Origin: Actinomycetota bacterium
Lineage (GTDB): Bacteria; Actinomycetota; Actinomycetes; Actinomycetales; Microbacteriaceae
Assembly: GCA_041179545.1 (NCBI GenBank)
Contig: JBEGTF010000004.1
Span: 1 to 60,035, forward strand
DNA: 60,035 bases
Direction: 5' to 3'
The position numbers and the translations under genes are program-made. The notes below the pieces were generated by a model. It saw nothing but the letters and a program-made list of their open reading frames with translations, had not been told where the DNA came from and searched no databases. Of the stretch, positions 5,911 through 55,086 are shown piece by piece (within the stretch, counting starts at the first letter, position 1; each line of letters opens with the position of its first letter).

Positions 5911-5920
5911 TTTTCCACAG
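5911..5920 (+). promoter_or_regulatory. DnaA-box-like motif TTTTCCACAG upstream of yraN-comM-dprA
   Basis: Starts 59 nt before the yraN ATG (5970); also part of the inverted repeat CCACAG-ATTCT-CTGTGG. Confidence 0.55.
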
Positions 5921-5969
5921 ATTCTCTGTGGTGGCTTCTTTATGCAAACGTGTGGGCAATGCTTTGCCC

Positions 5970-6323
5970 ATGACTCAAAAACAATTCATGGGCAAGTACG
6001 GCGAAGACCTCTCTGCCAAATACCTTCAAGACCGCGGATATCAAATCATTGAACGCAATTGGCGATGCAATTTAGGTGAAATCGATTTGATTGCAAAAGA
6101 GGGCAATCGAATTATTTTTGTTGAGGTGAAGACCCGAAACGGTTCTGGTTACGGCCACCCGTTCGAAGCAATTACCGCTTTGAAAGTGTCTCGCATGAGG
6201 AAGCTCGCTGCCCAGTGGTGTGCAGAGCATAAATCCGCCGGTTCTAAAGTGCGATTGGATGCCATAGCTGTTCTGATTCAAAATGGCAAAGTTGCGATTG
6301 AACACTTGAAGCAAGTCTTCTGA
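5970..6323 (+). CDS. yraN: YraN family (UPF0102) nuclease
   Basis: GKYGED, ERNWRCNLGEIDLIA, FVEVKTR and RLDAIAV motifs. Confidence 0.95.
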   Translation: MTQKQFMGKYGEDLSAKYLQDRGYQIIERNWRCNLGEIDLIAKEGNRIIFVEVKTRNGSGYGHPFEAITALKVSRMRKLAAQWCAEHKSAGSKVRLDAIAVLIQNGKVAIEHLKQVF

Positions 6324-7933
6324 TGGTCGCTAAACGCCTATTAGCAAAATCCTACGCAATCAGTCTGATGGGTTTGGCTGGCACAGTAGTCGAGGTTGAA
6401 TCAGAAATCTCGAGTACCCTTCCGGGGTTTGTCTTGGTTGGTTTGCCGGATGCGTCGTTGAGTGAGTCTAAAGATAGGGTTCGTGCCGCAATTCAAAACA
6501 GCGGATTGAAAATGCCAGATCGGCGTGTGACCGTAAATCTTTCTCCCGCATCTGTCCGCAAGCAAGGTTCAAGTTATGACCTTGCCATTGCTGTGAGCTT
6601 GTTAGCGGCAAGTGGAACTCTAAGTTCCGCCTCCGTAGAAGGTTGTCTGCATCTAGGTGAGCTTGGTCTTGATGGGTCGGTTCGTAAAGTCGCAGGCATC
6701 CTTCCTTCGCTAATGGTTGCTAAAGATGCTGGAATTCATCGTGCTGTCGTACCCCAGGCAAACTTTGCTGAAGCAAAACTCGTATCAGGCTTGGACGTGA
6801 TTGCAGTCGATAGTTTTCGAGAGGTCGCGAACCTGCACGGCGCAAATTTGATTCTTGAAGAAAACTTTTCGGCTACATCAAAGCAAGAGGCAGGCACTAA
6901 GACAAATTTAGATTCAACAAAAGATTTCTTGCAGCTCGATGTGTCCGACGTTCTTGGCCAAGAGGATGCAATCGACGCGCTTGTAGTGGCCGCTGCAGGT
7001 GGACATCACATCCTGATGATTGGGCCACCTGGAGCTGGAAAAACCATGATGGCCGAGAGGCTGCCCGGCTTGTTGCCTGACATGAATTTTGAGCAAGCGC
7101 TGGAAACAACGGCGGTTTTGTCAATTTCTGGTAATCGTGCAATCGCGAATGACTCGCTTGTCCTGCGACCTCCGTTTGAAGCTCCACACCACAGTGCTTC
7201 TGTTTCGTCGTTAGTGGGAGGCGGAATGGGCATACCTCGACCGGGCATCATTTCACTTGCCAATAACGGCGTTCTGTTTCTAGATGAAGCACCGGAATTT
7301 CAAAAGCCAGTGCTGGAAGCACTTCGACAACCTCTGGAATCCGGCGAAGTGGTGATAAACAGATCGGGTGGCTCTGCAAAATTTCCGGCGAAATTCCAGC
7401 TAGTTCTAGCTGCAAATCCCTGTCCCTGTGGAAACTCTTTTGGCACTGGAAGATCTTGTCGCTGTTCAGATCTACAAAAGAACAATTACATGTCCAAGCT
7501 TTCTGGGCCTTTGCTGGACCGCGTAGACATAAGACTCAGTATTTTTGCAGCCAGCCCCGCACAGCTAGCCCTCTCACGGGCTAAAACGCTATCCAAGATG
7601 GGCACAAACGTAACCTCAGCTGGTTTGCGAGAAGTCGTTACCGAAGCTCGATCACGCGCCTACTCGAGACTTCGTGAAACGCCCTGGATGCTAAACGCAC
7701 AGGTACCAGGTGCCTATCTTCGAAAGTTCATGCCACTTCCAGCTGAGGTTGTTTCACGATTAGATAGCGCACTTGCAAAGGGCCGCATGAGCATGCGTGG
7801 CTATGACCGCTGCCTCAGGTTGGCTTGGTCGGTCGCTGATCTTGCTGGGCGAGATATTCCTAATGAACTTGATGTTTCCAAGGCAATCTTCCTGAGGGGT
7901 TCTGAAGACTTTGGGAGGCTGGGCAATGGCTGA
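6323..7933 (+). CDS. comM: YifB/ComM family Mg-chelatase-like AAA+ ATPase
   Basis: VGLPDASLSESKDRVR, Walker A GPPGAGKT, LFLDEAPEF, AANPCPCG and SGPLLDRVD motifs. Confidence 0.96.
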   Translation: MVAKRLLAKSYAISLMGLAGTVVEVESEISSTLPGFVLVGLPDASLSESKDRVRAAIQNSGLKMPDRRVTVNLSPASVRKQGSSYDLAIAVSLLAASGTLSSASVEGCLHLGELGLDGSVRKVAGILPSLMVAKDAGIHRAVVPQANFAEAKLVSGLDVIAVDSFREVANLHGANLILEENFSATSKQEAGTKTNLDSTKDFLQLDVSDVLGQEDAIDALVVAAAGGHHILMIGPPGAGKTMMAERLPGLLPDMNFEQALETTAVLSISGNRAIANDSLVLRPPFEAPHHSASVSSLVGGGMGIPRPGIISLANNGVLFLDEAPEFQKPVLEALRQPLESGEVVINRSGGSAKFPAKFQLVLAANPCPCGNSFGTGRSCRCSDLQKNNYMSKLSGPLLDRVDIRLSIFAASPAQLALSRAKTLSKMGTNVTSAGLREVVTEARSRAYSRLRETPWMLNAQVPGAYLRKFMPLPAEVVSRLDSALAKGRMSMRGYDRCLRLAWSVADLAGRDIPNELDVSKAIFLRGSEDFGRLGNG

Positions 7934-9152
7934 CTTAAGGATTTCGAAAAAAGAGTTGCTTTCTTTGCTGCCGGAAAGCGATGAAGATCAGGTACAGAAT
8001 GTTTTTGCGTCCATTGCCTGGAGTGTTATTTGCGAACCGGGAGATGGTTTTGCAGGATTACTGGTTTCTGCTTTAGGTCCAGCTGCAGCCCTTGAATTGC
8101 AAATTCAAAGCAGTGATCCCTCACAGGTAAAATCGCGAGTCTTAGACGCGGGACTTTGCGCGACGGATTTAGATTCATTCGGCGTATTCGAAAAGGCGTT
8201 GATGAATTCTCGTGAGCGTTGGCAGCCAAGACTATCTTTGGATTTGGTTCGATCGGCGCTTTTTGGAATTCGTAAATTTCATGGTCACGTCATTACGCCA
8301 ACGTCAGACTATTGGCCAGAACAACTCAGCGATTTGGGAAATCACGCACCGATGGCGCTCTGGGTTAGAGGTAGCCTCGATGCAGTGGCCGGGTTGGGTC
8401 AATCAATCGCAATCGTGGGTTCCAGGGTAGCTACAGCATATGGTGAACACGCCACCGACGCGATGATTAGCGCTTTGGTGCCAAAAGACATCCCGATTGT
8501 TTCTGGAGGGGCGTACGGAATTGATGGATGCGCACACCGATCAACTCTTGCCCTGAAAGGTCAGACGGTAGCTGTTATGGCTGGAGGTGTGGATAGGTTT
8601 TACCCAACTGGAAATTCCGATTTACTAAAGCGCGTTTCTCAAACCGGTGCAGTGGTTAGTGAACTACCACCGGGAACTACGCCAACGAAGTGGCGATTTC
8701 TTCAACGTAATCGGCTTATTGCCGCATTATCAAAAGCAACTTTGGTTGTAGAAGCAAACTGGCGTTCTGGAGCGTTGAATACGGTCTCGCACGCGGAGCG
8801 CCTTGGCAGAGACATCTACGCCATACCTGGACCAATCACTTCACCAAAATCTGCCGGAGTTAACAAACTTGTGGCCGATGGAAGAGCGCAGTTGGTGGTT
8901 GATGCGGCCGATCTTCTTGATCGGCTGGGAGTTCAAACTCGACAAGTTTCAAAGACTGAGCTGGCCGGTTTAGGTGCAATTGAATTGCGTGTTTTGGATG
9001 CGATTGGATTCAATGCTCTTGAAATCAATGAGGTGTGTGCTGCGGGTGGGTTGACTCGTGACGAAGCCCGTTTTGGGTTGGCAAATTTAGAGCTAGACGG
9101 ATTAATACTGAGGCGTGACAACACTTGGATGCGAAGCCAAACTACAGTTTGA
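7926..9152 (+). CDS. dprA: DNA-processing protein DprA
   Basis: AIVGSR, VSGGAYGID, FLQRNRLIAAL and VVEANWRSGALNT motifs; C-terminal winged helix. Confidence 0.96.
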   Translation: MADLRISKKELLSLLPESDEDQVQNVFASIAWSVICEPGDGFAGLLVSALGPAAALELQIQSSDPSQVKSRVLDAGLCATDLDSFGVFEKALMNSRERWQPRLSLDLVRSALFGIRKFHGHVITPTSDYWPEQLSDLGNHAPMALWVRGSLDAVAGLGQSIAIVGSRVATAYGEHATDAMISALVPKDIPIVSGGAYGIDGCAHRSTLALKGQTVAVMAGGVDRFYPTGNSDLLKRVSQTGAVVSELPPGTTPTKWRFLQRNRLIAALSKATLVVEANWRSGALNTVSHAERLGRDIYAIPGPITSPKSAGVNKLVADGRAQLVVDAADLLDRLGVQTRQVSKTELAGLGAIELRVLDAIGFNALEINEVCAAGGLTRDEARFGLANLELDGLILRRDNTWMRSQTTV

Positions 9153-9155
9153 TGT

Positions 9156-10064
9156 GTGAGCACTAGTTTTAGGAAAGCGATTTTAGGTTTCGAGGCCTAT
9201 CTCGATGCTGGTCGCGGCTACTCCGAAAATACGGTCAAGGCATATCTCATTGACGTGCAAGATCTTGCCGATTTTCTAGAGAAAAAGAACATCGAAAATG
9301 TTGAAAACTTGAATCTTGAACACCTGCGCGATTGGTTGTGGCAGGCAACCCAACAGGGGCTAACAAAAGCCACAATCGCTCGAAAGAGCGCCGCCATAAG
9401 ATCCTTCACCGCTTGGGCCCTAAAAAATGGACTTTCTGGATCTGATCCGGGGCTCAGGCTCAGGTCTCCAAAAGCAAGCCGAACACTGCCCAAGGTAGTT
9501 TCTCGCGAGAGTTTGTCGATGGTTTTTAAATCTTTGACTGAACGTGCAACCGAGGATAATCCTCAAGGAATCCGTGACCTTGTAGCTGTTGAACTTCTTT
9601 ATGCCAGTGGCGCCCGTGTCAGCGAACTTGTTGGGCTTGATCTAGAAAGTATCGACTACAGCAGAAACATCATGCGAGTTATGGGTAAAGGCGCAAAGCA
9701 GCGCATGGTCCCTTTTGGCCAGCCGGCCCGGGATGCACTAGATCTGTGGATTCGAATCGCACGACCAATGTTGGCAAACGAAAAAAGCGGGCAGGCGTTG
9801 CTTCTGAATTCGCGTGGACAGCGCATCGGTGTTCGCCAGGTCTACAGCTTGGTTGCGAATCTTTTAGAGGTAACTCCAACCGGCGCGGCTGGCCCGCACT
9901 CGCTTAGGCATAGTGCCGCAACACATCTTTTGGACGGCGGGGCAGACTTACGCGCCGTACAAGAACTTCTTGGGCACGCAAGTTTGGGCACCACGCAGAT
10001 TTACACTCACGTTTCTATAGAACGCCTTCGGGACGGTTATAAAAACGCTCATCCGCGAGCCTAG
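9156..10064 (+). CDS. xerC: Tyrosine recombinase XerC
   Basis: LLYASGARVSEL, GKGAKQRMVP, HSLRHSAATH and LGHASLGTTQIYTH; usual position after dprA. Confidence 0.93.
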   Translation: MSTSFRKAILGFEAYLDAGRGYSENTVKAYLIDVQDLADFLEKKNIENVENLNLEHLRDWLWQATQQGLTKATIARKSAAIRSFTAWALKNGLSGSDPGLRLRSPKASRTLPKVVSRESLSMVFKSLTERATEDNPQGIRDLVAVELLYASGARVSELVGLDLESIDYSRNIMRVMGKGAKQRMVPFGQPARDALDLWIRIARPMLANEKSGQALLLNSRGQRIGVRQVYSLVANLLEVTPTGAAGPHSLRHSAATHLLDGGADLRAVQELLGHASLGTTQIYTHVSIERLRDGYKNAHPRA

Positions 10065-10599
10065 GTAGTAATCGGCTGGGATTTAATCCACCTATAAACA
10101 GCAGCGGAGAGAGGTATTCGCTTCCTCCCTTTGTTCTGACGGGGCTGCGCAGGGAAAAGTGCAAGCAGGCCGCTTTGGGGCAGTGTCCCTGATAAGTCGG
10201 CAGGGCCGGGCACACCACGGCAATTTCTTGCCCTGCGAATACAGGCTCCCCGATAGATAGATCTGTGCATGCAGGTTCAAATTCGGTGAGGTATCCGCCT
10301 TCATGCTTCAGCGACAGCACCGGACGCTGGGCCACCGTGCCTGCAAACCACACTTTTCCATCGGCTGGGGCAAGTATCGGTTGGTCAACGGTCACGAGGT
10401 AATCCACGCCCCGGTGACCAGCGGAGTAGTCGCTATTTGGCTGACGGTACTGGTTCACCAGGCGAACAGGGGGCTCCAATGGTGGATTCCAGTTGCCAAG
10501 AGGAAGCGATGAATTAGCCGCTGCCGCAGCCTGCAGGCAAATTAACAGGCTCAAAGAAATCAGGCTCGCCAAGGTCAAGTTCTTTAGTTGTTTATGCAT
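10015..10599 (-). CDS. Secreted M23 family peptidase domain protein
   Basis: N-terminal signal peptide, GHRGVD, APADGKV and CLHFSLR; usual position divergent from rpsB. Confidence 0.88.
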   Translation of the reverse strand: MHKQLKNLTLASLISLSLLICLQAAAAANSSLPLGNWNPPLEPPVRLVNQYRQPNSDYSAGHRGVDYLVTVDQPILAPADGKVWFAGTVAQRPVLSLKHEGGYLTEFEPACTDLSIGEPVFAGQEIAVVCPALPTYQGHCPKAACLHFSLRSPVRTKGGSEYLSPLLFIGGLNPSRLLPRLADERFYNRPEGVL

Positions 10600-10648
10600 G
10601 TTCAATGGTTGTACCTAAGGCCTGCCGCCCAGTTAAACCTTGGGAAAA

Positions 10649-10658
10649 CGGTGGATAA
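10649..10658 (-). promoter_or_regulatory. DnaA-box-like motif TTATCCACCG upstream of the M23 peptidase
   Basis: On the minus strand, starts 59 nt before the ATG at 10599. Confidence 0.55.
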
Positions 10659-10675
10659 CCCTGGATTTCCGCTGC

Positions 10676-10880
10676 TAGACTGTCACTTAGCGGCAAGCTC
10701 GCGAAATCCCCAATTTGAGGCCTTCAAAAGCATGTCGACTTCGCGTGTCGAATCAGATTTACCTTTCACTCAGTCCAAAGAAATTTGGCGAAAGGGATCC
10801 GGCACCAGGTGTGTCAATCAACCGATTGAAACAGTAAAACTGAGTGGCGCCTTGGCGCGCCAAAAAAGGAGACACTGCTC
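10676..10880 (+). promoter_or_regulatory. rpsB promoter (-10 TAGACT) and long structured 5' UTR (probable S2 autoregulatory leader)
   Basis: TAGACT at 10676-10681; leader of about 190 nt with stems CGCGAAA/TTTCGCG, TTTGAGG/CCTTCAAA and TCAATC/GATTGA; SD AAGGAG. Confidence 0.55.
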
Positions 10881-11671
10881 ATGGCAGTAGTAACAATCCG
10901 CCAGCTGCTAGACAGCGGCGTGCACTTCGGGCACCAGACCCGTCGTTGGAACCCATCTACATCATTGACCTACAGCAGTCACTTGCTTTGATCGACAAAG
11001 CTTACGACTTCGTTAAGGAAACCGTTGCTCACGGTGGCAGCATTCTTTTTGTTGGTACCAAGAAGCAGGCTCAGGAGTCAATCGCGACCGAAGCGCTACG
11101 AGTTGGTCAGCCTTACATTAACCAGCGCTGGTTGGGTGGTCTCTTGACCAACTTCCAGACCATTCAAAAGCGTCTTTCACGCCTGAAGGAACTTGAAGTA
11201 ATGGACTTCACCGGAAAGACCAAGACTGGTCTAACTAAGAAGGAACTTCTTATTCTTCGTCGCGAAAAGGACAAGCTAGAGAAGGCTCTAGGCGGTATCC
11301 GCAATATCACCAAGACTCCATCTGCGATTTGGGTTGTTGACACCAACAAGGAGCACCTAGCAATCACCGAAGCTAAGAAGCTTGGTATCCCGGTTATCGG
11401 AATCTTGGACACAAACTGTGACCCTGATGAAGTAACTATCGGTATTCCTGGAAATGATGACGCAATTCGCTCAGTTCAGTTGCTAACTCGCGTAATTGCT
11501 GACGCAGTTGCAGAAGGTCTAATTGCTCGTCACTCGAAGCCAGAGGCAGCAGCAGAGCCTCTTGCTGAATGGGAGCGCGAGCTTCTAGAGCAGGGCAATG
11601 CCGCTGCAGAAGCAAGTGCCGCAGCTGAAACAACCCCAGCAGCAGAAGCTGCAGTAGAGGAAGCAAAGTAA
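10881..11671 (+). CDS. rpsB: 30S ribosomal protein S2, frameshifted by an internal deletion at about 10954
   Basis: ATG 10881 gives [25 protein letters not shown], then the frame shifts to IYIIDLQQ...RWLGGLLTN...PGNDDAIRS. The intervening conserved ~12 codons are absent. Confidence 0.95.
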
Positions 11672-11673
11672 AC

Positions 11674-12501
11674 ATGGCAAACTACACAGCCCAAGATGTA
11701 AAGGCTCTGCGCGAGCGCAGTGGCGCCGGAATGATGGACTGCAAGTCAGCTCTTGATGAGGCAGACGGCAACCTAGACAAGGCGATGGAAGTTCTTCGCC
11801 TTAAGGGACTAAAGGGTGTTACCAAGCGTGAGGGTCGTACAACCAGCAATGGTTTGATCGTTGCTCGCGTAAACGGTGGCACCGGTTACCTAGTTGAACT
11901 TGCTTGCGAGACTGACTTCGTTGCGAAAGCCGCAAAGTTCATTGAGCTTGCTGACAAGGTTGCTGACGCAATTGCTGCGGCCGGCGCGACTGACCTAGAT
12001 TCAGCTTTAGCAGCCGACCTCGGTGGCAAGAGTGTTCAAGACGCAATCAACGACGAAGCCGCAATCATGGGCGAGAAGGTTGAGCTTCGCAAGGTTGGAT
12101 CTCTAAAGGATGCAGCGGTTGACGCTTACATGCACCGCACTAGCAAGGACCTACCGCCACAGGTTGGTGTTTTGGTCGCTTACTCAGGTTCGGATTCTGA
12201 CACTGCTCACGATGTTGCCGTTCACATCGCAGCATTCTCTCCAAGCGTTCTAAAGCGTGAAGATGTAGATGCAGATGTAGTTGCAACTGAGCGCCGTATT
12301 GCAGAAGAGACAGCACGCAACGAAGGTAAGCCTGAGGCTGCACTTTCAAAGATCGTTGAAGGTCGCGTAACCGGATTCTTCAAAGAAAACGTGCTTCTTG
12401 AGCAGGACTTCGCAAAGGACACCAAGCAGACTGTTTCTAAGGTGCTTGAGAATGCAGGCGTTACTGTTTCAGGTTTCCTACGCTTCCGCGTAGGCGCCTA
12501 A
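11674..12501 (+). CDS. tsf: Elongation factor Ts
   Basis: VKALRERSGAGMMDCK and ELACETDFVAK motifs. Confidence 0.99.
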   Translation: MANYTAQDVKALRERSGAGMMDCKSALDEADGNLDKAMEVLRLKGLKGVTKREGRTTSNGLIVARVNGGTGYLVELACETDFVAKAAKFIELADKVADAIAAAGATDLDSALAADLGGKSVQDAINDEAAIMGEKVELRKVGSLKDAAVDAYMHRTSKDLPPQVGVLVAYSGSDSDTAHDVAVHIAAFSPSVLKREDVDADVVATERRIAEETARNEGKPEAALSKIVEGRVTGFFKENVLLEQDFAKDTKQTVSKVLENAGVTVSGFLRFRVGA

Positions 12502-12512
12502 ACCCAAATTTG

Positions 12513-12546
12513 AAAAGGCTCGGCCGTTTTCGGCCGGGCCTTTTTT
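12513..12546 (+). terminator. Intrinsic terminator after tsf
   Basis: AAAAGGCTCGGCCG-TTTT-CGGCCGGGCC followed by TTTTTT. Confidence 0.88.
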
Positions 12547-12599
12547 ACTGCCACGCCTAGGATAGAAGCAGTATCCAGGGACTATTCAGGAGGATTCCA

Positions 12600-13310
12600 G
12601 TGCCACAGAAAAAGCGCCGTGTATTGCTAAAGCTTTCGGGTGAGGCTTTTGGTGGTGGCACACTCGGTGTCAACCCTGACATCGTTGCTGAAATGGCAAA
12701 GGAAATTGCAGAAGGGGCAAAGCACGCGGAGGTAGCCATCGTAGTTGGTGGCGGAAACTTCTTTAGAGGTGCTGAACTTTCGCAACGCGGTATGGAGAGA
12801 TCACGTGCCGACTACATGGGTATGTTGGGAACCGTTATGAACGCCCTTGCTCTCCAGGACTTTCTTGAGCAGGCCGGCGTAGATGTGCGAGTCCAGTCAG
12901 CTATCACAATGTCTCAGGTGACAGAGACTTATATTCCACTTCGAGCGATACGCCACCTTGAAAAAGGCCGAGTTGTAATTTTTGGTGCAGGTGCCGGTCT
13001 GCCTTATTTCTCCACCGATACCGTTTCTGCACAGCGCGCTTTGGAAATTAAGGCTGACGAAGTACTTGTTGCCAAGAATGGCGTCGACGGCGTGTATACA
13101 GCGGACCCAAAGAAAGATCCAAAGGCAACCAAGTTGGAAACCATTACGTACCAAGACGCACTGATTCAAGGACTAAAAGTTGTTGACTCGACCGCCTTCA
13201 GCCTCTGCATGGATAACAAGATGCCGATGCGTGTGTTTGGTATGCAGGGCAAGGGCAACATTACGGATGCCATCAAGGGTAAAAAAATCGGTACTTTCGT
13301 AACCGCTTAA
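12600..13310 (+). CDS. pyrH: UMP kinase
   Basis: [16 protein letters not shown] and PYFSTDT motifs. Confidence 0.99.
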
Positions 13311-13333
13311 AGTTTTAGTAAACAGGAGAACAA

Positions 13334-14746: not shown

Positions 14747-14755
14747 ACTTACAAC

Positions 14756-44313: not shown

Positions 44314-44314
44314 A

Positions 44315-45368: not shown

Positions 45369-47216
<1,848 letters not shown>

Positions 47217-47220
47217 GCGA

Positions 47221-47712
47221 CTAGAGCGCAAATTCCCCTAGGTCCACGCCAAGATAATCGGCAATCACGTCGGTGACTAATTTGTGGTCATCGCGTTGAG
47301 GTAACCCTGAAATTGTTGCCGTGGCAACTATTCCTTCACCGCTGACGCGAATAGGGAAGCAGCCACCATGCCAGGCGTAGTCTTGCTCATCAAGGCTTTC
47401 TACCCGGTCTATTGCCCCGGCAAACTTGATTTCTAATCCAACAAGGTAAGAGCTCGTGTGCATGAGGTTTACTAGATTGCGCTTACGTCTGGCCCAATCG
47501 GCATTAATAGCAGTTGCTCCAGGCATGCAACTAAAGAAAAGAACTTCTTCACCTCGACGAATGTCGATTGCTACGCCGGTTGGATATTTAGCTGCCTCAA
47601 TCCTTAGAGCGTTGCCCAGCGACCAGGCATCGCTCTCATCAAAAGACCTAAAGACCAACAGTTCCTCTTGTTTGATTACTTTTTGAATGTCCGATTCGCG
47701 TGGTTCGTTCAT
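47221..47712 (-). CDS. Heme-degrading domain protein (UPF0303/DUF336)
   Basis: WARRKRN, HGGCFPI and ISGLPQRDDH motifs. Confidence 0.88.
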   Translation of the reverse strand: MNEPRESDIQKVIKQEELLVFRSFDESDAWSLGNALRIEAAKYPTGVAIDIRRGEEVLFFSCMPGATAINADWARRKRNLVNLMHTSSYLVGLEIKFAGAIDRVESLDEQDYAWHGGCFPIRVSGEGIVATATISGLPQRDDHKLVTDVIADYLGVDLGEFAL

Positions 47713-48185
47713 TACGCCACCGGCCCTTTGTTGAAGTGTTCGAAGACCATGTTGGTTCGAGTCGAAGCCACGGTGGCATTGCTCGAAAGGTTTTCAAGCA
47801 CAAATTCACGGACGTGGTCATTGTCCCGAACTGCGAGATGAACTATGAAATCTTCTGAGCCCCCTAAGAAAAACACCTGGATTACTTCAGGCAGCGAGCG
47901 CATCTCATTCATGAAATCTGCCAGATGAGACCTGGCCCCGGCACGAAGCGATACAGAAATCAAAACTTGACTAGCCAAACCAACAGAGGCTGGATTGATG
48001 TTGGCACTAAATCCAGTTATGACTCCTCGGCTAACCAGTGACCGAACTCGAGTGATGCAGGTCGAAGGAGCGATTCCGGCCGCCTCTGCAAGATCAGCGT
48101 TCGTGATTCGGGCGTTTTGATTCAGCAGCTTCAACAGCTCAAGGTCAATCTCGTCTAATTCAGCCTGCAGATTATTCGTTGCCAT
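47712..48185 (-). CDS. aldR: Lrp/AsnC regulator, probable AldR
   Basis: LDEIDLELL...NARITNADLA HTH; divergent from ald. Confidence 0.88.
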   Translation of the reverse strand: MATNNLQAELDEIDLELLKLLNQNARITNADLAEAAGIAPSTCITRVRSLVSRGVITGFSANINPASVGLASQVLISVSLRAGARSHLADFMNEMRSLPEVIQVFFLGGSEDFIVHLAVRDNDHVREFVLENLSSNATVASTRTNMVFEHFNKGPVA

Positions 48186-48308
48186 TGGCCAGATTCCCTT
48201 CAAAAATGAATTTCTTAGAAAATATTAGGTCAATTTTGGCAGAAAATACGGTCTTTACACGAATGTAACGTAATACCTGCAGTATTTACCTGAAAGAAGG
48301 AGCAAATC

Positions 48309-49427
48309 ATGCGCGTAGGCATTCCAACCGAAATCAAGAACAACGAAAACCGAGTGGCGATTACGCCAGCGGGCGTTCACGAACTTGTTCGTCGAGGTCA
48401 CGAGGTCTTTATCCAGGCTGGGGCGGGAATCGGTTCAGGATTTGAAGATTCTGATTTTGAAACCCAAGGCGCAAAGATGCTTGCAACCGCAGAAGAAACC
48501 TGGGCTGCCGGTGACCTTCTGCTAAAAGTAAAAGAGCCCATCAAGGCAGAGTACAAGTTGATGCGTCGTGATCAAGTCCTGTTCACTTACCTTCACCTAG
48601 CCGCGTCTCGCGAATGCACCGATGCCCTTCTAGCGTCTGGAACTACAGCGATTGCTTACGAGACCGTGCAGTTGCCTAACCGTGCCTTGCCGCTGCTACA
48701 GCCAATGAGTGAAGTTGCCGGTCGTCTGTCTGCGCAAATCGGCGCCTACCAGCTCATGAAAAATGAAGGTGGTCGTGGGGTGCTTATGGGGGGTGTTCCA
48801 GGGGCGCCGAAAGCGAAGGTCGTTGTGATCGGTGGTGGAGTTGCCGGCGAGCACGCAGCGACAATGGCGCTGGGCATGCAGGCGGAAGTAACCGTTATTG
48901 ACATCTCGTTGCCAAAACTTCGCGAACTTGATGCGCGTTTTGGTGGCCACGTTCGCACTCGTGTATCGACAGCCTTAGAAATTGCCGAGCAGCTAAAGGA
49001 AGCCGACCTTGTTATCGGATCTGTTTTGATTCCAGGAGAAAAAGCACCAAAGCTGGTAACAGACGCGATGGTGAAGACAATGAAGCCTGGCTCAGTGCTT
49101 GTTGATATCGCCATCGATCAGGGTGGTTGTTTCGAAAATTCAAAGCCAACGACACACGATGACCCAACCTACAAAGTTCACAACAGTGTTTACTACTGCG
49201 TGGCAAACATGCCAGGAGCTGTTCCTGCAACATCTACTCGCGCACTGACCAACGCGACGTTGCCTTATGTCGTTGCTCTTGCAGACAAAGGATGGAAGGC
49301 TGCATTGGCTGGGGATGAGTCTCTTGCTAAAGGGCTGAACGTGCACGATGGAAAAGTGACTTACTCAGGAGTACTGCACGCTTTCCCAGAACTGCCTTTC
49401 CAAGACTTGCACGAAGCAATCGCCTAA
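48309..49427 (+). CDS. ald: Alanine dehydrogenase
   Basis: PTEIKNNENRV, KVKEP, FTYLHLA, DIAIDQGG and VANMPGAVP motifs. Confidence 0.98.
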   Translation: MRVGIPTEIKNNENRVAITPAGVHELVRRGHEVFIQAGAGIGSGFEDSDFETQGAKMLATAEETWAAGDLLLKVKEPIKAEYKLMRRDQVLFTYLHLAASRECTDALLASGTTAIAYETVQLPNRALPLLQPMSEVAGRLSAQIGAYQLMKNEGGRGVLMGGVPGAPKAKVVVIGGGVAGEHAATMALGMQAEVTVIDISLPKLRELDARFGGHVRTRVSTALEIAEQLKEADLVIGSVLIPGEKAPKLVTDAMVKTMKPGSVLVDIAIDQGGCFENSKPTTHDDPTYKVHNSVYYCVANMPGAVPATSTRALTNATLPYVVALADKGWKAALAGDESLAKGLNVHDGKVTYSGVLHAFPELPFQDLHEAIA

Positions 49428-49436
49428 AGGATATGC

Positions 49437-50447
49437 CTATGCGGGCTGCTGCTGTGTGATGCAGTGGATTCCGCCGCCACGGGCAAAAAGAGCGCGGGCA
49501 TCAACTAAGACAATTTTTCTATCCGGGTAAACCTGCTGAAGAGTTTCCACGGCCAGAGAATCGTTGTCATCATTGAAGCCACATAAAATCACACCTCCAT
49601 TAACTAGGTAGTGATTTATGTAGCTGTAGTCAACAAACCCTTCTTCATCGCGCAAGATTTTTGGCGCGACCAGGGGGATTAGTTCGAAGCCGCCGTGCTC
49701 TTCAAGAGTCCTTTTTACCTCGTGACTAACCGAGTAATCCGGGTGGGTTGGATCTTCTTGACTGTGAAACAAAATTTTTGTGGGCGATGCAAAGCAAGCA
49801 ACTATATCGATATGTCCGCGGGTGCCGAATTCGTCATAATCGCGGGTAAGTCCTCGTCGAATCCAAATTGCCTCCGTGGTGCCTAGTTTTTCGTGGATTT
49901 CTTTTTCCACCTCATCGCGCGACCAGCTTGAATTGCGCCCCTCACCTAGCTGCACGGTTTCAGTAAGCAGAACGATGCCTGCACCATTTACGTGAATTCC
50001 ACCACCTTCATTAATGAGCGAGGAATCGAGTATTTTCTTGCCAGACATTTTTGTGATGATTGAGGCAACCTCGGAGTCTTTGTCCCACTTTGCCCAACTT
50101 TGCGCGCCCCAGCCATTGAAAACCCAGTTCACTCCGGCAACATCTCCTGCGGGATTTTTTACGAATGTCGGCCCGATATCGCGCATCCAGGCATCATTGA
50201 GTGGGGCCTCGACTATTTGAATTCGTGGATCTAAATATTCTCTAGCTGTGTCCATTGCACTGTTTTCACAAAGCATGGAAACCGGTTCAAACTCTATGAC
50301 CGCGTTTGCAACTGCCGCCCAAGTTGAGCGTGCCTCGTGGCGCTGCTCTTCTGTGTCGCCGAGTGTGTACCCCGATGAGGGCCAAGCCATCCACGTGCGC
50401 TCGTGGCGATCCCACTCGGCGGGCATAAACCAATCGGGTTTTGACAT
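49437..50447 (-). CDS. aguA: Agmatine deiminase
   Basis: MPAEW, WMRDIGP, EGGG, GHID, SYINHY and GGGIHCITQQQP motifs. Confidence 0.95.
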   Translation of the reverse strand: MSKPDWFMPAEWDRHERTWMAWPSSGYTLGDTEEQRHEARSTWAAVANAVIEFEPVSMLCENSAMDTAREYLDPRIQIVEAPLNDAWMRDIGPTFVKNPAGDVAGVNWVFNGWGAQSWAKWDKDSEVASIITKMSGKKILDSSLINEGGGIHVNGAGIVLLTETVQLGEGRNSSWSRDEVEKEIHEKLGTTEAIWIRRGLTRDYDEFGTRGHIDIVACFASPTKILFHSQEDPTHPDYSVSHEVKRTLEEHGGFELIPLVAPKILRDEEGFVDYSYINHYLVNGGVILCGFNDDNDSLAVETLQQVYPDRKIVLVDARALFARGGGIHCITQQQPA

Positions 50448-51446
50448 TTAGTAACTGACTCCCGCGATGCCACCGTCTTCGCCATCGCCACTTTCCGTGC
50501 GTCGATTTACCACCGGTTCGCCTAGCATCCCGTAAGTATCCGGTCTGCGAGTAGCAAGAAATGGGAACAGGTCAAGCCAGTCGCGTCTTTGATCCAAATC
50601 AAGGTCTGTGACTAAGACTTCATCACCTTCGCGCTCGGCACGAGCAAGGATGCGACCATACGGATCGCAGATGAAACTGCTTCCGTAAAAATTAAGTGCA
50701 CCTTCGTTTCCATATCTATTTGGAACAATCATGAATGTGCCGTTTGCGATGGCGTGACCTACGATTACCTGACGCCAAAGCGGTTCGGTATCAAATTCCG
50801 GGTGATCCGGCTCTGAACCAATTGCCGTTGGGTAGACCAAGACTTCTGCTCCACGCAAGCTGTAATTTCTTGCGACTTCTGGAAACCATTCATCCCAGCA
50901 CGTTGGCAGACCAAATTGTGCATCAACATCGTTGAACTCAAGATCGTACACAGGGTATGGCTCCCTATCAGCTGGACCCGGTGCGAAATATTTGTCTTCG
51001 TAGTAGCCGGCTGTAACAGGTATGTGAAGTTTTGGAGTCCTGGCAACTATTGCGCCTTCTGGGTTGACGATTATTGCAGTGTTTAGTGCCCGACCATCAG
51101 GCATGTCCTGGTACTCATAGAGCGAAGCGTGAACGTACACATTGTTAGCGCGCGCCGCTGCCGCAGCAAATGCGTGCGTTGGTCCACCCTCAAGCTTTTC
51201 AGCAATTGAGTTGGGCGTTCCGTTTGGTAATTGATCGGCGGGGTAGCGGCTAAGTGTGAGTTCTTGAAGGCAGACAATTTGAGCACCATTTTCCGCTGCG
51301 AGGCGAATGCCTTCATTTAATTTGGCTAGGTGTTCACCTAGGTTCTCATGCCACTTGGTTTGCACGAGTGCGACTCGAAGAGATGAGCGACTTGAAGCTT
51401 TGACCCTCGACAAAGACTGCAAGGCGGGAGTGACTGTAACTTTCAC
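50448..51446 (-). CDS. aguB: N-carbamoylputrescine amidase-type C-N hydrolase
   Basis: Nitrilase triad LQEL / KLHIP / CWDEWFPE plus YPTAIGSEP; adjacent to aguA. Confidence 0.85.
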   Translation of the reverse strand: MKVTVTPALQSLSRVKASSRSSLRVALVQTKWHENLGEHLAKLNEGIRLAAENGAQIVCLQELTLSRYPADQLPNGTPNSIAEKLEGGPTHAFAAAAARANNVYVHASLYEYQDMPDGRALNTAIIVNPEGAIVARTPKLHIPVTAGYYEDKYFAPGPADREPYPVYDLEFNDVDAQFGLPTCWDEWFPEVARNYSLRGAEVLVYPTAIGSEPDHPEFDTEPLWRQVIVGHAIANGTFMIVPNRYGNEGALNFYGSSFICDPYGRILARAEREGDEVLVTDLDLDQRRDWLDLFPFLATRRPDTYGMLGEPVVNRRTESGDGEDGGIAGVSY

Positions 51447-51449
51447 GAT

Positions 51450-52817
51450 CTAACTTTCTTCATCCATGCTTTCAAGTATTGCTTTCAGAGAACTGAGCTC
51501 TGTTCGAGGGTTCACGATAGCAAACCTTGCGTTCGGTTCACCTTGGTGTGAACTCGGAACCACAAACGCTTCTCCTCGAGCTAATAGTTTTTCCGACCAA
51601 GAATCATAATCATTCAATGCCCAACCTTTTTTTGTGAAGACGACCACTGAAAGTTCAGGTTCGCGAACCAATTCCAAATCGGACTTTCCTCTAATGATCT
51701 CTGCAATTTGCTTTGCAAGCTCTATGTTTTTGCGAACTCCCTCTCGGTAGGCCGCGACTCCATGCGTGGCCAAAGAGAACCAAAGGGGTAGACCGCGTGG
51801 ACGGCGAGTTAGGTTGTAGGCATAGTCGGAGGGGTTCCAGTCACCAGACTCGGTTAGAGTCTCAAGGTATTCCCCGTGTTGGGTGTGTGCCGCTCTGGCA
51901 AGTTCTGGGGATCTGTATATCAAAGCGCATGCATCAAACGGGGCAAATAACCACTTGTGCGGGTCAACAATAAAACTGTCGGCTTTTTCAATACCCGCAA
52001 AAATCGGTTTAGTCTCGGTAGAAAGTATTCCGGCAAGCCCGTAGGCACCATCCACGTGGAACCAAATCTGATTTTCCTTCGCTACATCTGCAATTTCGTC
52101 GATCTTGTCAACGATTCCAAAGTTTGTTGTGCCAGCCGTTGCAACTATCGCAAATACACCTTCGCCTGCGCTCTGTAGCGCGTTTGATACCGAAGAACCG
52201 CGAAGATGTCCAGTTTCATCCACCGGAGCCTTGATTATCTCGACATCCATCACAGCTGCTGCGGATTTTAATGAAGAGTGTGCTTCAGCAGAGCAGATGA
52301 ATTTCCATTTAGTTGGCAATGGTTTTCCAGCGGAAATGAGTTTTTGCGATGCGGAATGTCTAGCAGCAACTAGTGCGCTCAAATTTCCAAGGGTGCCGCC
52401 TTGAACAAAAACTCCCCCCGCGCCTTTGGGTAACCCTGCCTCATCTGCCAACCAAGAAAGCACTTCGTTTTCAGCAAATACGGCACCAGCACCCTCCATC
52501 CACGATCCACCGTAAATTGCAGATGCCGAGACAATCAGATCAAACAGCTTTGACGCTTCGGTAGGTGCAGATGGAATGAAAGAAAGATAGTTTGGGTGAT
52601 CGGTTGAAATAGTCGATGGGGCCAGGACCTCGCTAAAAATTTCTAACGCTTTTGAGCCACCAATGCCGCTCTCTGAGATTGTTTTTCCGGCGTTCTTTTG
52701 CAGCCATTCGGGTGACTGTGGGCCGTCGAGTGGGGCCGGATCGTATTCGAGCCTTCGTCTTGCGTATGCGAATACTTCCTCGCGCAGTTTTATTGAGTCT
52801 TCATTGACTTCGTGCAT
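51450..52817 (-). CDS. Group II PLP-dependent amino acid decarboxylase
   Basis: GGTLGNL, AHSSL, TAGTT, HVDGAYG and DPHKWLF (PLP Lys); TAGGCT lies 6 nt before ATG 52817. Confidence 0.92.
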   Translation of the reverse strand: MHEVNEDSIKLREEVFAYARRRLEYDPAPLDGPQSPEWLQKNAGKTISESGIGGSKALEIFSEVLAPSTISTDHPNYLSFIPSAPTEASKLFDLIVSASAIYGGSWMEGAGAVFAENEVLSWLADEAGLPKGAGGVFVQGGTLGNLSALVAARHSASQKLISAGKPLPTKWKFICSAEAHSSLKSAAAVMDVEIIKAPVDETGHLRGSSVSNALQSAGEGVFAIVATAGTTNFGIVDKIDEIADVAKENQIWFHVDGAYGLAGILSTETKPIFAGIEKADSFIVDPHKWLFAPFDACALIYRSPELARAAHTQHGEYLETLTESGDWNPSDYAYNLTRRPRGLPLWFSLATHGVAAYREGVRKNIELAKQIAEIIRGKSDLELVREPELSVVVFTKKGWALNDYDSWSEKLLARGEAFVVPSSHQGEPNARFAIVNPRTELSSLKAILESMDEES

Positions 52818-52826
52818 ATCCAAAGC

Positions 52827-53060
52827 CTACTTTTGTTTTTTTCTTCGCACGAATGAAGCTGCAAAACCTAACACCGATAGAGAAAGCAGTACCCAGGATC
52901 CGATTTGACGGTCCCTAGCAATGGATTCGCAAGATGTCCAACCTTCGGTCTGCACATCCACGCAAGTGCTTGGATCAAAAAGCCCAATGATGGAAGCAAA
53001 AACACCTACTAAGGCGACGGTTGCGACCATTGCCATTGAGTTGTTCTGAATTTTTACCAT
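52827..53060 (-). CDS. Small two-TM membrane protein with a Cys pair in the loop
   Basis: 77 aa; two hydrophobic helices flanking C-x9-C; basic tail; tightly packed in the operon. Confidence 0.7.
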   Translation of the reverse strand: MVKIQNNSMAMVATVALVGVFASIIGLFDPSTCVDVQTEGWTSCESIARDRQIGSWVLLSLSVLGFAASFVRRKKQK

Positions 53061-53068
53061 GCCTAGCC

Positions 53069-53461
53069 TTAGGCCTGCGGTTCGGAAACGTCGCCGAAAT
53101 CTCCGCCTTGCGACTCAATTTCTTGGCGAATCTCATCCATGTTCAAATCGCGCACGGCCTGAATTAGCTCCTCCAGTGCCGGGGCTGGTAAGGCACCAGC
53201 CTGATTGAACAGCAAGACTCCATCACGGAACACCATGAGCGTTGGAATCGAGGTGATGCCTGCCTCGCCAGCGAGCTGAGTCTCAGCTTCGGTGTCCACT
53301 TTGCCGAATCGAATATCGGTGTGCTTTTCTGAAGCTGCCTCATAAACCGGCGCAAACTGCATGCAAGGTCCACACCATGCCGCCCAGAAATCTACAATCG
53401 TGATTCCTTCGTTTACCACGGTGTCACCAAATGTCTTGATTCCTAATTCAATGGTTGCCAA
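53069..53461 (-). CDS. Thioredoxin
   Basis: VDFWAAWCGPC and ITSIPTLMVF; probable TTG start (MATIEL). Confidence 0.94.
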   Translation of the reverse strand: MATIELGIKTFGDTVVNEGITIVDFWAAWCGPCMQFAPVYEAASEKHTDIRFGKVDTEAETQLAGEAGITSIPTLMVFRDGVLLFNQAGALPAPALEELIQAVRDLNMDEIRQEIESQGGDFGDVSEPQA

Positions 53462-54392
53462 GCGTTTTACCTCTCGAAATTTGAGCCACAATGATGCCTG
53501 CAATTACCAAAGTACCGCCGATTAGTTGCAAGAACTCCATTTTTTCACCCAACCACAAATAACCAAAAATGAAAGCAAATACAGTCTCCGCTGTAGAAAT
53601 GACCCCAACTGAAGTTGCTTTCAAGTGCCCCAGGGCGACAAAGCTAAAAAACATCGGAGCAAATGAACCGAGAACTCCAATCCAGATAATCAACAGCCAA
53701 GCTGGAACGAATATTCCTGCCAGATTTCCATCTAGATCGATAGCCTTTGAGGTTATCGATTGGTCGAAATCGCGCCAGTTGCTAAACAAAATCCAAAAGA
53801 CAGAGGAGACCAGCATTGTGTAAAAAAGTGTGGAAACGGGGTCTCTGGATTGCTGGCTTTTTTCGCCCATTATGAAGTAAACGCTCAGGAATATCGCTGC
53901 AGAAAATGCAAAGAGTATCCCGACTGGATTCAGCTGGCTGTCCCAAATTTTTGAGACGACCATAAGCCCTCCAAGAACTAACGCGACCCCGAACCACAGC
54001 TTGCGAGCTGGTCTCTCCTTGAAAAGCAGGAAGGAGGCTAGCGGCACAATAATGATTGCGGTGTACTCAATCAGTAGTGCAATTCCAACCGGCAGATTTT
54101 TCACAGCATTCGAATATGACCACTGCATAAGCGCCACTCCAATGACACCAAATGCAATTAGGAACTTCCATTCGTGTTTCTTGACTATGAAGCTTTTTGG
54201 ATTAGTAGCCATCATGATTAGGCAGGCGATCAGTGCGGTGGAAAAAGACCTGAACAGCACAATTTGTTCGGGAGAAACGCCGGCAGCCATGACAACTTTT
54301 GTTGTGCTGGCGTTCAATCCAAAAAGAAGTGCGGCGGAAAAGGCTAGAGCAGCACCGAAAGCTGGTCTTTTCGTTTTCACCAGGACACTCAT
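53448..54392 (-). CDS. EamA/DMT family transporter
   Basis: About 10 TM helices; LPVGIALLIEYTA and ETVFAFIFGYLWLGE motifs. Confidence 0.93.
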   Translation of the reverse strand: MSVLVKTKRPAFGAALAFSAALLFGLNASTTKVVMAAGVSPEQIVLFRSFSTALIACLIMMATNPKSFIVKKHEWKFLIAFGVIGVALMQWSYSNAVKNLPVGIALLIEYTAIIIVPLASFLLFKERPARKLWFGVALVLGGLMVVSKIWDSQLNPVGILFAFSAAIFLSVYFIMGEKSQQSRDPVSTLFYTMLVSSVFWILFSNWRDFDQSITSKAIDLDGNLAGIFVPAWLLIIWIGVLGSFAPMFFSFVALGHLKATSVGVISTAETVFAFIFGYLWLGEKMEFLQLIGGTLVIAGIIVAQISRGKTLGNH

Positions 54393-54429
54393 CTCTTATG
54401 CGGGCTCCGTGCCCGTCACAGCAGATTCA

Positions 54430-54439
54430 AGCCTAGGCT
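54430..54439. promoter_or_regulatory. Palindromic bidirectional -10 element (AGCCTAGGCT) between eamA and msrA
   Basis: Perfect palindrome giving TAGGCT on both strands; 6 nt before the msrA ATG. Confidence 0.6.
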
Positions 54440-54445
54440 AGTTAA

Positions 54446-54970
54446 ATGATGAGTTTTTTCCTAGCCGGAGGCTGCTTCTGGTGCCTCGATAGTTCTTACA
54501 TGCAGTTCAAGGGCGTCACAGATGTTGTAGTGGGTTACATGGGCGGACATCTTGATAATCCCGGTTACGAAGCGGTCTGTGGCGGAAACACGGGCCATGC
54601 TGAAATAGCAGAGGTTATTTTTGACGAGGATGTTATTCCAGCTGAAATCATCTTGGATATCTTTTTCACTTTGCACGACCCTACACAATTGAACCGCCAG
54701 GGAAATGACATTGGTACCCAGTACCGTTCAGCCATGTTCTACACCGATGAAAGTCAACGCGAAGTTTTTGCCGCTGCAATTGAAAGGGCCAAGGCAACCT
54801 GGGGCGATGGGATTGTCACCGAACTGAACCCAGCCAGCGAATTTTGGGTGGGCGAGGAATATCACCAAGATTTCTTCGCAAAGAACCCAAATCAGGGTTA
54901 TTGCAATGCTGTTGTAGCACCAAAAATGCTCAAAACTCGTAAAGCATTTTTGAATTACATTCGCGAATAA
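54446..54970 (+). CDS. msrA: Peptide-methionine (S)-S-oxide reductase
   Basis: GGCFWC, TGHAE, HDPTQLNRQGNDIGTQYRS and EEYHQ motifs. Confidence 0.97.
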   Translation: MMSFFLAGGCFWCLDSSYMQFKGVTDVVVGYMGGHLDNPGYEAVCGGNTGHAEIAEVIFDEDVIPAEIILDIFFTLHDPTQLNRQGNDIGTQYRSAMFYTDESQREVFAAAIERAKATWGDGIVTELNPASEFWVGEEYHQDFFAKNPNQGYCNAVVAPKMLKTRKAFLNYIRE

Positions 54971-54986
54971 TAAAACCACCGGCAGG

Positions 54987-54996
54987 TTATCCACAG
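54987..54996 (+). promoter_or_regulatory. Perfect DnaA-box sequence TTATCCACA(G) upstream of ssb
   Basis: Intergenic; weak -10 CAAACT at 55034-55039 predicts a start near 55046, 59 nt from the box start. Confidence 0.6.
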
Positions 54997-55086
54997 ATTT
55001 TTCACTAGGCACCAAAGTTTTGACTTTGCTAGCCAAACTCGAAAGACGTCACACTCCGTGGCTTCAAGTTTCGAGAAGGGCACAAA

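What the first reader, a model, noticed from the sequence alone, without database searches (positions are those of the whole stretch)
5911..55046. Candidate competence/transformation regulon marked by a DnaA-box-like motif at a fixed -59 position
Seen: three intergenic copies of TT(A/T)TCCAC(A/C)G with the same spacing. TTTTCCACAG at 5911 (+) is 59 nt before the yraN ATG (5970). TTATCCACCG at 10658 (-) is 59 nt before the M23 peptidase ATG (10599). TTATCCACAG at 54987 (+) is 59 nt before position 55046, the start site predicted from the -10 CAAACT of the ssb paralog. All three have a degenerate -10 lacking the first T (AATGCT, AACCAT, CAAACT), whereas housekeeping genes here have TAGGCT/TAGACT/TAAACT. 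Established: ComM, DprA, YraN and secondary SSBs are natural-transformation factors in other bacteria, and TTATCCACA is the canonical DnaA box. Inference: an activator (DnaA itself or an unknown factor) switches on a DNA-uptake/recombination programme, with the M23 peptidase possibly opening the wall. I know of no described regulator of this kind in Microbacteriaceae.
Basis: partly seen in the sequence, partly recalled or inferred. Interest (0 to 1): 0.85.

Follow-up and report, generated by a model that had tools for sequence, protein, structure and literature searches.

The report
Shared switch for actinobacterial DNA uptake
A short DNA word identical to the binding site of the replication starter protein DnaA sits at a fixed distance in front of the DNA-uptake and recombination genes of this bacterium and of relatives across its class, and likely marks the still unknown on-switch of natural transformation in actinobacteria, most likely worked by DnaA itself.

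Summary
Observation confirmed and extended. The three boxes lie where stated (4 window matches against 0.48 expected). In this genome and a complete same-genus genome, the box sits 37-38 nt before a predicted -10 at comEA-comEC, comF, tadA1, yraN-comM-dprA, ssbB, M23, recA, a WXG100 gene and ogt. It sits reversed, 26-27 nt before it, at tadA2, the SAF/CpaE operon and the prepilin peptidase. The geometry holds across the class: 95 of 188 target loci against 1 of 156 random genes; 162 genome-wide matches against 7 for the control. The -10 mostly lacks its first T. The box matches the oriC boxes of the same genomes, and published in-vitro data show weak DnaA binding at one such promoter. Against DnaA: five other target promoters are missing from that list, one common oriC variant is rare at promoters, and lineage co-variation vanishes after correcting for G+C. 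Regulon real about 95%; DnaA the activator about 50%. Ten paper searches found no description. This scan noted the same regulon twice on other DNA. The M23 protein lacks the usual catalytic histidines, so wall opening is uncertain.

The parts
5911..5920 (+). box TTTTCCACAG, 37 nt before the predicted -10 of the yraN-comM-dprA-xerC operon
   Evidence: conserved at -59 in G009
5958..5963 (+). predicted -10 AATGCT of a predicted leaderless yraN transcript
   Evidence: spacing peak in orthologs
5970..6323 (+). yraN
   Evidence: PF02021, NF009154 above cut-off
6323..7933 (+). comM (YifB family AAA ATPase)
   Evidence: TIGR00368 above cut-off
7911..9152 (+). dprA (longest frame; true start may lie further in)
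   Evidence: TIGR00732 above cut-off
9156..10064 (+). XerC-type tyrosine recombinase, likely the last gene of the operon
   Evidence: NF001399 above cut-off, TIGR02224 just below
10015..10599 (-). M23-family protein with N-terminal hydrophobic stretch, atypical active-site motifs (HRGVD kept; FEP and CLH where Y-x-H and H-x-H are usual)
   Evidence: PF01551; alignment of 29 orthologs
10605..10610 (-). predicted -10 AACCAT of the M23 gene
   Evidence: G009 has CAACCT at spacer 37
10649..10658 (-). box TTATCCACCG, 38 nt before the predicted M23 -10
   Evidence: spacing fixed to the M23 side, variable to the rpsB side
54987..54996 (+). box TTATCCACAG, 37 nt before the predicted ssbB -10
   Evidence: 21 of 22 ssbB loci carry a core against 1 of 6 ssbA loci
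55034..55039 (+). predicted -10 CAAACT; predicted start 55046, leader 41 nt
55087..55524 (+). ssbB, secondary single-strand binding protein (TTG start)
   Evidence: PF00436; 34% identical to the other SSB of G009

Best explanation
A DnaA-box-like 10-mer sits at a fixed distance before the predicted -10 element of the DNA-uptake and recombination genes of this genome and of relatives across the class, and it likely marks one competence regulon switched on by an upstream activator, most likely DnaA itself. Shown: the word NN(G/A/C/T)TCC(A/C)CAG lies 37-38 nt before an nAnnnT hexamer in one orientation, or 26-28 nt before it in the other. These two positions differ by one helical turn. About half of the proximal boxes have a second box 16-39 nt further up, and the hexamer mostly starts with C or G. 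Inferred: these are weak promoters of the main sigma factor that need a protein bound at about -55 or -44, outside the -35 region, to recruit RNA polymerase, probably through the alpha-subunit C-terminal domain. Inferred: because these promoters carry one or two boxes while oriC and dnaB carry arrays, they would fill last, only when free DnaA is in excess (slow or blocked initiation, starvation) or with a co-activator. That would tie pilus assembly, DNA import (ComEA/EC, ComF) and strand exchange (DprA, SsbB, RecA, ComM-YraN) to the state of replication.
For: Fixed geometry: spacing counts 36 at 37 nt and 61 at 38 nt against about 4-5 per position elsewhere; reversed core at 26-28 nt 12 times among 29 SAF-operon loci. 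Specificity: 95 of 188 target loci against 1 of 156 random high-GC genes. In complete G009, 14 of 1537 ORF calls have the geometry at up to 1 mismatch; 8 of these are competence or recombination genes and 3 are M23, WXG100 and ogt. Genome-wide pattern 162 against 7 control matches in 61 genomes (my sums). Weak -10: first base T in 14 of 106, while T dominates G009 leaderless hexamers (153 of 338). For DnaA: the commonest oriC 10-mers in this family are built on TTATCCACA, the same word as the promoter boxes of G000 and G009. The oriC and dnaB boxes across the class show the same degenerate 5' ends, the A/C at position 7 and the G at position 10. One DnaA domain IV per genome in 59 of 60 family and 96 of 100 class genomes. 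Purified ATP-DnaA enriched a site 92 nt upstream of Rv2415c (comEA-like, label recalled) 3.6-7.2-fold at 300 nM (PMC7738170 Table S8). A DnaA box was noted in the Streptomyces coelicolor ssbB promoter (PMC3616714). The Micrococcus luteus-type HTH_17 regulator is not found in complete G009, which keeps all boxes.
Against: In the same in-vitro table (about 50 sites) nothing lies at Rv289x, Rv324x, Rv365x or Rv366x, and the site near Rv2478c is 1.5 kb away. The Rv2415c site ranks among many weak sites, several of them at PE/PPE loci. M. smegmatis ChIP in exponential growth names only five sites, none a competence gene. The variant TGCACAG is common at oriC (54 against 187 exact) but rare at promoters (5 against 137), and this is not double counting. 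High-GC members of this family have C at position 3 in 70% of promoter boxes but in 15% of oriC boxes. The family-level correlation of position-3 G between oriC and promoters (rho 0.43, 22 families) falls to r 0.07 after removing G+C. dnaB promoters, a known DnaA target, do not show the 37-38 geometry in the 9 examined. In a dnaA I282T mutant 4 of 6 target genes were unchanged and 2 slightly up. In family f33 the yraN boxes are reversed yet 38 nt from the hexamer in the 2 loci I counted by eye, which a rigid orientation rule does not explain. No start site, binding or expression was measured here.
Confidence: 0.5

Rival explanations
1. The regulon is real but the box is read by a dedicated, still unidentified monomeric activator whose specificity resembles that of DnaA; DnaA only cross-binds weakly.
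For: Promoter cores are stricter than oriC cores (TGCACAG 5 against 137 versus 54 against 187) and looser at the 5' TT. Most target promoters are absent from the DnaA in-vitro and ChIP lists. No co-variation remains after G+C correction. DnaA is always present, yet competence is conditional in M. luteus (PMC12849477).
Against: No second DnaA-domain-IV protein in nearly all genomes (the 5 second matches were not examined). The factor would have to be kept in 1.4-1.5 Mb streamlined genomes of two families (G009; f24 yraN promoters). The best genetic candidate is not found in G009, and the WhiA motif GACACGCC is different (PMC13473873). I did not list all regulators of G009.
Confidence: 0.36
2. 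DnaA binds the boxes but acts as a repressor or gate (keeping uptake genes off during active replication), and another factor activates.
For: ssbB-like Rv2478c and tad-linked Rv3660c rose slightly (log2 +0.35, padj 0.025 and 0.017) in the I282T mutant. DnaA represses its own promoter in model bacteria (recalled).
Against: The proximal box lies wholly upstream of the -35 region at a spacing fixed to within 1 nt, in front of poor -10 elements: the geometry of activation, not of steric block. About 390 genes rank at or above that significance in the table, so 2 of 6 is weak.
Confidence: 0.07
3. The BldC-like HTH_17 protein encoded opposite the SAF/CpaE operon (Mlut_14660 in M. luteus) is the box-binding master regulator.
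For: Nearly all M. luteus mutants with deregulated comEA map to this locus (PMC8467076). The gene was recovered in 21 of 29 SAF loci, and boxes lie in the shared intergenic DNA.
Against: A profile of 21 orthologs finds nothing at E below 0.01 in six frames of complete G009 or incomplete G000, yet both keep the boxes at 13 of 13 listed promoters. The paper's model makes it a repressor.
Confidence: 0.04
4. The boxes are chance or have a replication-related role (DnaA titration) unrelated to the adjacent genes.
For: DnaA boxes occur outside origins in many bacteria (recalled). The box also precedes unrelated-looking genes: AbiEi-like, XRE, HicA.
Against: Spacing is fixed to the downstream hexamer. 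Boxes are at ssbB but not ssbA. Control pattern 7 against 162. At M23 the spacing is fixed on the M23 side and ranges from 39 to 162 nt on the rpsB side.
Confidence: 0.03

Closest known systems
DnaA-activated promoters (Caulobacter gcrA, E. coli nrdAB; recalled) and the mycobacterial DnaA sites at dnaB, rpmH-dnaA and Rv0010c (PMC7738170)
   Same: Same 9-mer; box upstream of the -35 region; in PMC7738170 weaker binding at dnaB goes with lower dnaB expression.
   Different: Targets are a whole DNA-uptake pathway; one or two boxes instead of arrays; spacing fixed to within 1 nt; not among the strong DnaA sites.
Late-competence regulons of model bacteria: ComK boxes (Bacillus subtilis), combox/CIN box of ComX (streptococci), CRP-S sites with Sxy/TfoX (Haemophilus, Vibrio); recalled, partly named in PMC8467076
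   Same: One cis element in front of pilus, comEA/EC, comF, dprA, ssbB, comM and recA genes. CRP-S/Sxy is also a general DNA-binding protein re-used for competence.
   Different: Different sequence; asymmetric; Tad/Flp pili instead of Com or type IVa pili; M. luteus lacks ComK and ComX (PMC4322843, PMC12849477).
MarA/SoxS/Rob class I promoters of E. coli (recalled; paper not held)
   Same: Asymmetric site working in one orientation at one distance from the -10 and in the opposite orientation about one turn closer.
   Different: Analogy of geometry only; unrelated sequence; no AraC-family candidate was tested.
M. luteus competence locus Mlut_14660/Mlut_14650 (PMC8467076)
   Same: The homologous divergent region carries the reversed box in relatives, and tad, comEA/EC and the prepilin peptidase are the genes needed for transformation there (PMC4322843).
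   Different: No DNA motif or DnaA role appears in the passages found (0 hits for 'DnaA' in PMC8467076 and PMC12849477).

Membership tests
DnaA box / DnaA regulon | matches the 9-mer TTATNCACA or the organism's own oriC boxes | tested here: met
   window boxes TTATCCACA, TTTTCCACA, TTATCCACC; family oriC top words built on TTATCCACA; consensus from PMC4588119
DnaA box / DnaA regulon | same tolerated variants as oriC boxes, changing together between lineages | tested here: inconclusive
   7C and 10G shared; TGCACAG not shared; partial r 0.07 after G+C
DnaA box / DnaA regulon | bound by DnaA in vitro or in vivo | not testable with these tools
   published data mixed: weak site at Rv2415c, none at five other targets; ChIP names none
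DnaA box / DnaA regulon | expression depends on DnaA | not testable with these tools
   one published mutant table read for 6 genes: 4 unchanged, 2 up by log2 0.35; none in the shared list of three mutants
late-competence regulon | shared element before pilus, uptake and processing genes | tested here: met
   13 of 13 listed promoters in both G000 and G009 at up to 2 mismatches; class-wide counts
late-competence regulon | element absent from housekeeping paralogs and random genes | tested here: met
   geometry at ssbA 0 of 6, at random genes 1 of 156
late-competence regulon | genes co-induced and organism transformable | not testable with these tools
   only assembled RNA contigs were available
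class I activator-dependent promoter | site upstream of -35 at fixed helical phase with weak core promoter | tested here: met
   37-38 and 26-28 nt peaks; -10 first base T 14 of 106; start sites predicted only
class I activator-dependent promoter | activator contacts the alpha-subunit C-terminal domain | not tested
catalytically typical M23 peptidase (LytM type) | H-x-x-x-D and H-x-H motifs plus the second catalytic His (motifs recalled) | tested here: not met
   H-x-G-x-D kept in all 29; C-[LIV]-H in 25 of 29, an H-x-H string in 1 of 29; [YF]-[EQ]-P in 26 of 29
WhiA/WhiB regulon | GACAC(GCC) motif | tested here: not met
   motif from PMC13473873; no such word shows in the aligned promoter columns

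The most novel reading that the evidence does not exclude
DnaA, the replication initiator, is the direct master activator of natural competence throughout the Actinomycetes. A large family of AbiEi-like genes appears to have adopted the same signal.
Probability: 0.45. Interest if true: 0.92.

Novelty: new variant of a known kind. Interest (0 to 1): 0.8.

Why it matters
How actinobacteria turn on DNA uptake is stated to be unknown as of 2026 (PMC12849477). A conserved box with known position gives a probe to pull out the regulator, a list of regulon members including unassigned ones (atypical M23, WXG100, a secreted PKD protein), and a route to make laboratory and industrial actinobacteria transformable. 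If the factor is DnaA, competence is wired directly to replication initiation in a whole class, including abundant streamlined freshwater lineages.

Tried and rejected
(1) Mapping the M. luteus promoter mutation G1607081A onto a box: a scan of genome contigs with a published tadA1 primer gave one hit in an unrelated 3.6 kb record with no tad gene seen; left open. (2) RNA evidence: only assembled contigs existed. Ribosomal-protein genes were covered and comM-dprA hardly at all, which shows neither start sites nor silence. (3) My first idea of an 11-bp direct repeat behind the box: no such columns in the aligned promoters. (4) Lineage co-variation as proof of DnaA: striking in pooled counts (position-3 G 24 of 175 against 138 of 277 at oriC; 9 of 43 against 117 of 166 at promoters) but gone after G+C correction; not used as support. 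(5) dnaB promoters as a positive control for the geometry: arrays of boxes without the fixed spacing, 9 examined of 40 genomes with a match. (6) The box at 10649-10658 as an rpsB element: rejected on variable spacing. (7) HTH_17 as universal activator: rejected. (8) Structure prediction of DnaA with the alpha C-terminal domain: tool not available, no result. (9) Three recalled papers (DnaA domain IV structure, SigM regulon, marbox orientation) are not held. (10) The solved-structure search for the M23 protein gave only a weak zoocin A match. (11) A motif search for radA, recG, recO, priA and ftsK in G009 returned nothing, so their promoters were not examined.
Full report
1. Observation. The three boxes and their spacing are as described. 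The pattern occurs 4 times in the window against 0.48 expected; the fourth copy lies inside a coding frame. The downstream genes are yraN-comM-dprA-xerC, an M23-family gene and a second ssb. The genome G000 is 59% complete and its dnaA is not in the assembly.

2. Own genome and a complete relative. With at most one mismatch, intergenic boxes peak at exactly 59 nt before a start codon: 6 cases in G000 and 5 in G009, against 0-2 at every other distance from 15 to 139. Genes found this way, none used to define the motif, are tadA1, comEA-comEC, a WXG100 gene, ogt and comF. A second geometry appeared: the box reversed, 26 nt before the hexamer, at tadA2, the prepilin peptidase and the hyp-SAF-CpaE operon. 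All 13 listed promoters show one of the two geometries in both genomes at up to 2 mismatches. Only 14 of 1537 ORF calls of G009 do so at up to 1 mismatch, and 33 at up to 2. The rule for this last scan was tuned on these genes, so it shows specificity, not independent discovery.

3. Conservation. A forward core TCC(A/C)CA lies within 200 nt of the estimated start in 22 of 30 family yraN loci, 45 of 49 class yraN loci (49 of 49 on either strand), 17 of 30 family comEA loci, 1 of 4 class comEA loci, 21 of 22 ssbB, 19 of 24 comF and 25 of 29 M23 loci. Resampled sequence gives about one in ten, and ssbA gives 1 of 6. These are the best-scoring loci of each search plus 20 yraN loci that I picked to cover other families (49 of 99 class matches); five sets include the window's own genome. 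Dropped: loci of unpublished genomes, 4 comF loci without a hit and 1 without enough upstream DNA, 1 ssb locus without upstream DNA, 1 ssb set apart, 1 comEA locus without its start. The distance from box to the next nAnnnT peaks at 37 (36 counts) and 38 (61) over a floor of 4-5, with echoes at 56 and 65-66 that come from a second box, present in 49 of 97 cases. The full geometry is in 95 of 188 target loci, 0 of 6 ssbA loci and 1 of 156 random genes from four high-GC genomes. A gene-blind pattern gives 162 matches in 61 class genomes (51 with at least one) against 7 for the reversed pattern (my sums; one match is in unpublished G085). The reversed geometry is class-wide at the SAF operon: 12 reversed cores at 26-28 nt among 29 loci. 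In other classes of the phylum only 5 of 27 yraN loci have a core (2 expected), four of them in one family. Kin are not independent, so I give no p-values for these counts.

4. Promoter type. Among 106 proximal boxes the hexamer starts with C 64 times, G 25, T 14 and A 3, whereas T leads 153 of 338 hexamers at the leaderless position in G009 and 14 of 124 at a control position. No strong -35 shows in the aligned columns. The two box positions differ by about 10.5 nt with a flip of orientation. This is the picture of an activator bound upstream of -35 at a weak promoter; the step from picture to mechanism is inference, and all start sites are predicted. One exception: in family f33 three yraN loci have reversed boxes, 18 nt apart and 38 nt from the hexamer in the two that I could count (read by eye).

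5. Which protein. For DnaA: the promoter boxes of G000 and G009 are the same word as the top oriC words of the family; oriC and dnaB arrays across the class use the same degenerate forms; nearly all genomes have a single DnaA domain IV; PMC7738170 Table S8 lists a weak in-vitro DnaA site 92 nt upstream of Rv2415c; PMC3616714 notes a DnaA box at ssbB. Against: five other target promoters are not among about 50 in-vitro sites, and ChIP names none; TGCACAG is frequent at oriC but rare at promoters; high-GC members of this family prefer C at position 3 in promoters but not at oriC; co-variation disappears after G+C correction; dnaB promoters lack the fixed geometry; a dnaA mutant moved 2 of 6 genes slightly upward and none is in the shared list of three mutants. 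The Rv gene labels are recalled. The M. luteus HTH_17 candidate was recovered in 21 of 29 SAF loci but not in complete G009, although G009 has two other HTH_17-like matches. WhiA has another motif. I put DnaA as activator, alone or with a co-activator, at 0.5 and a separate factor at 0.36. The low-occupancy model reconciles weak binding with conditional expression but is untested.

6. The M23 gene. It is tied to the box class-wide, and the box keeps its distance to the M23 side, not the rpsB side. The protein keeps one zinc motif and the last His but lacks both usual catalytic histidines, so a wall-opening role is possible but not supported by typical motifs.

7. Literature. Ten full-text searches found no report of this motif as a competence element. 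What I saw: PMC3616714 passages, without the figure, so the position of its box is unknown to me; PMC8467076 passages, sections 17 and 24 (part 1 of 2) and a supplement search; PMC12849477, PMC4322843, PMC13473873, PMC4588119 and PMC10832538 passages; PMC6667448 a supplement search; PMC7738170 passages, Tables S6, S8, S9, S10 whole and six rows of S3. Tables S4 and S5 of that paper, bioRxiv supplements and subscription journals were not seen and could hold relevant data or a prior description. PMC12849477 (2026) states that the regulators in M. luteus remain to be identified. The scan itself reported the same regulon on two other genomes (e1-2985623, e1-5272063); these are unchecked AI notes and I do not count them as support.

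8. Verdict. A real, class-wide cis element marks the competence genes of these actinobacteria. It works like a late-competence activator site and reads like a DnaA box; membership of the DnaA regulon is met on sequence, inconclusive on variant spectrum and untested on binding and expression. Novelty: new variant of a known kind. Interest 0.8, because it makes a stated open question directly testable with a pull-down and a few reporters.

Noticed in passing
window 10015-10599; loci L338-L367: The M23 gene opposite rpsB is a class-wide subfamily that keeps HRG(V/I)D and a final His but has (Y/F)EP and CLH in place of the usual catalytic histidines, with a conserved upstream HC; possibly non-catalytic or of altered chemistry.
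   Followed up: partly
window 10649-10681 (+): Read on the + strand, the M23 box ends 17 nt before TAGACT, a likely rpsB -10, so binding there could also affect rpsB-tsf in this genus; the distance is not conserved in relatives.
   Followed up: partly
L432, L452, L455, L456, L458, L464, L465, L467 (G064, G113): Eight genes of an AbiEi-antitoxin-like family carry the box in the exact leaderless geometry (4 with a PF13338 hit; 4 assigned by eye), as do two XRE-type HTH genes, a PD-(D/E)XK nuclease, DUF5319 and hicA; the regulon may be wider, or selfish genes may use the signal.
   Followed up: partly
G090:C1:3672559-3672620 and 5121088-5121149: Two promoters combine the box with TGTCGGTG-N8-TA and TCGAAC/TCGAGC words that resemble the RecA-independent damage promoter and the LexA box (both recalled).
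   Followed up: no
L402, L410, L415, L416, L423 (family f47, another class): yraN promoters lack the box but show a TGTC-purine-G-like word about 10 nt before a TA hexamer, like the PafBC damage motif (recalled); control of this operon may differ between classes.
   Followed up: no
G000 C79:1762 and 2297 (-); G009 1111077 and 1111612 (-): The hyp-SAF-CpaE operon has two reversed boxes, one inside the 3' end of the first gene where it also encodes S-V-D-N; this genus lacks the divergent HTH_17 gene found here in other families.
   Followed up: yes
G009 413640 (+), G000 C51:4998 (+): A predicted secreted PKD-domain protein has the reversed box at 26 nt in G009 and a similar box upstream in G000; candidate pilus tip or DNA-uptake accessory.
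   Followed up: partly
G000 C62:3177, G009 68314; G000 C3:164, G009 683038: A 66-aa gene in front of a Fic/Doc gene and an unassigned membrane protein gene also have a box or degenerate box at -59/-60 in both genomes.
   Followed up: no
L032-L061: DnaA domain IV of this family differs from most of the class (SRSQ for SRSR in the basic loop; HTTVMY for HTTVMH), and its oriC boxes avoid G at position 3.
   Followed up: partly
G000 C21:9014-9023 (+): The reversed box of tadA2 lies 11 nt before the likely -10 (TAGACT) of a divergent tRNA-like gene (tRNA judged by eye).
   Followed up: no
window 54236-54245 (-): Fourth motif copy inside the EamA transporter frame, in sense; treated as chance.
   Followed up: no
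G156:C68:4785-4979: A second, weaker DnaA-domain-IV match (E 5e-14, 226-aa frame) in one genome; not examined.
   Followed up: no
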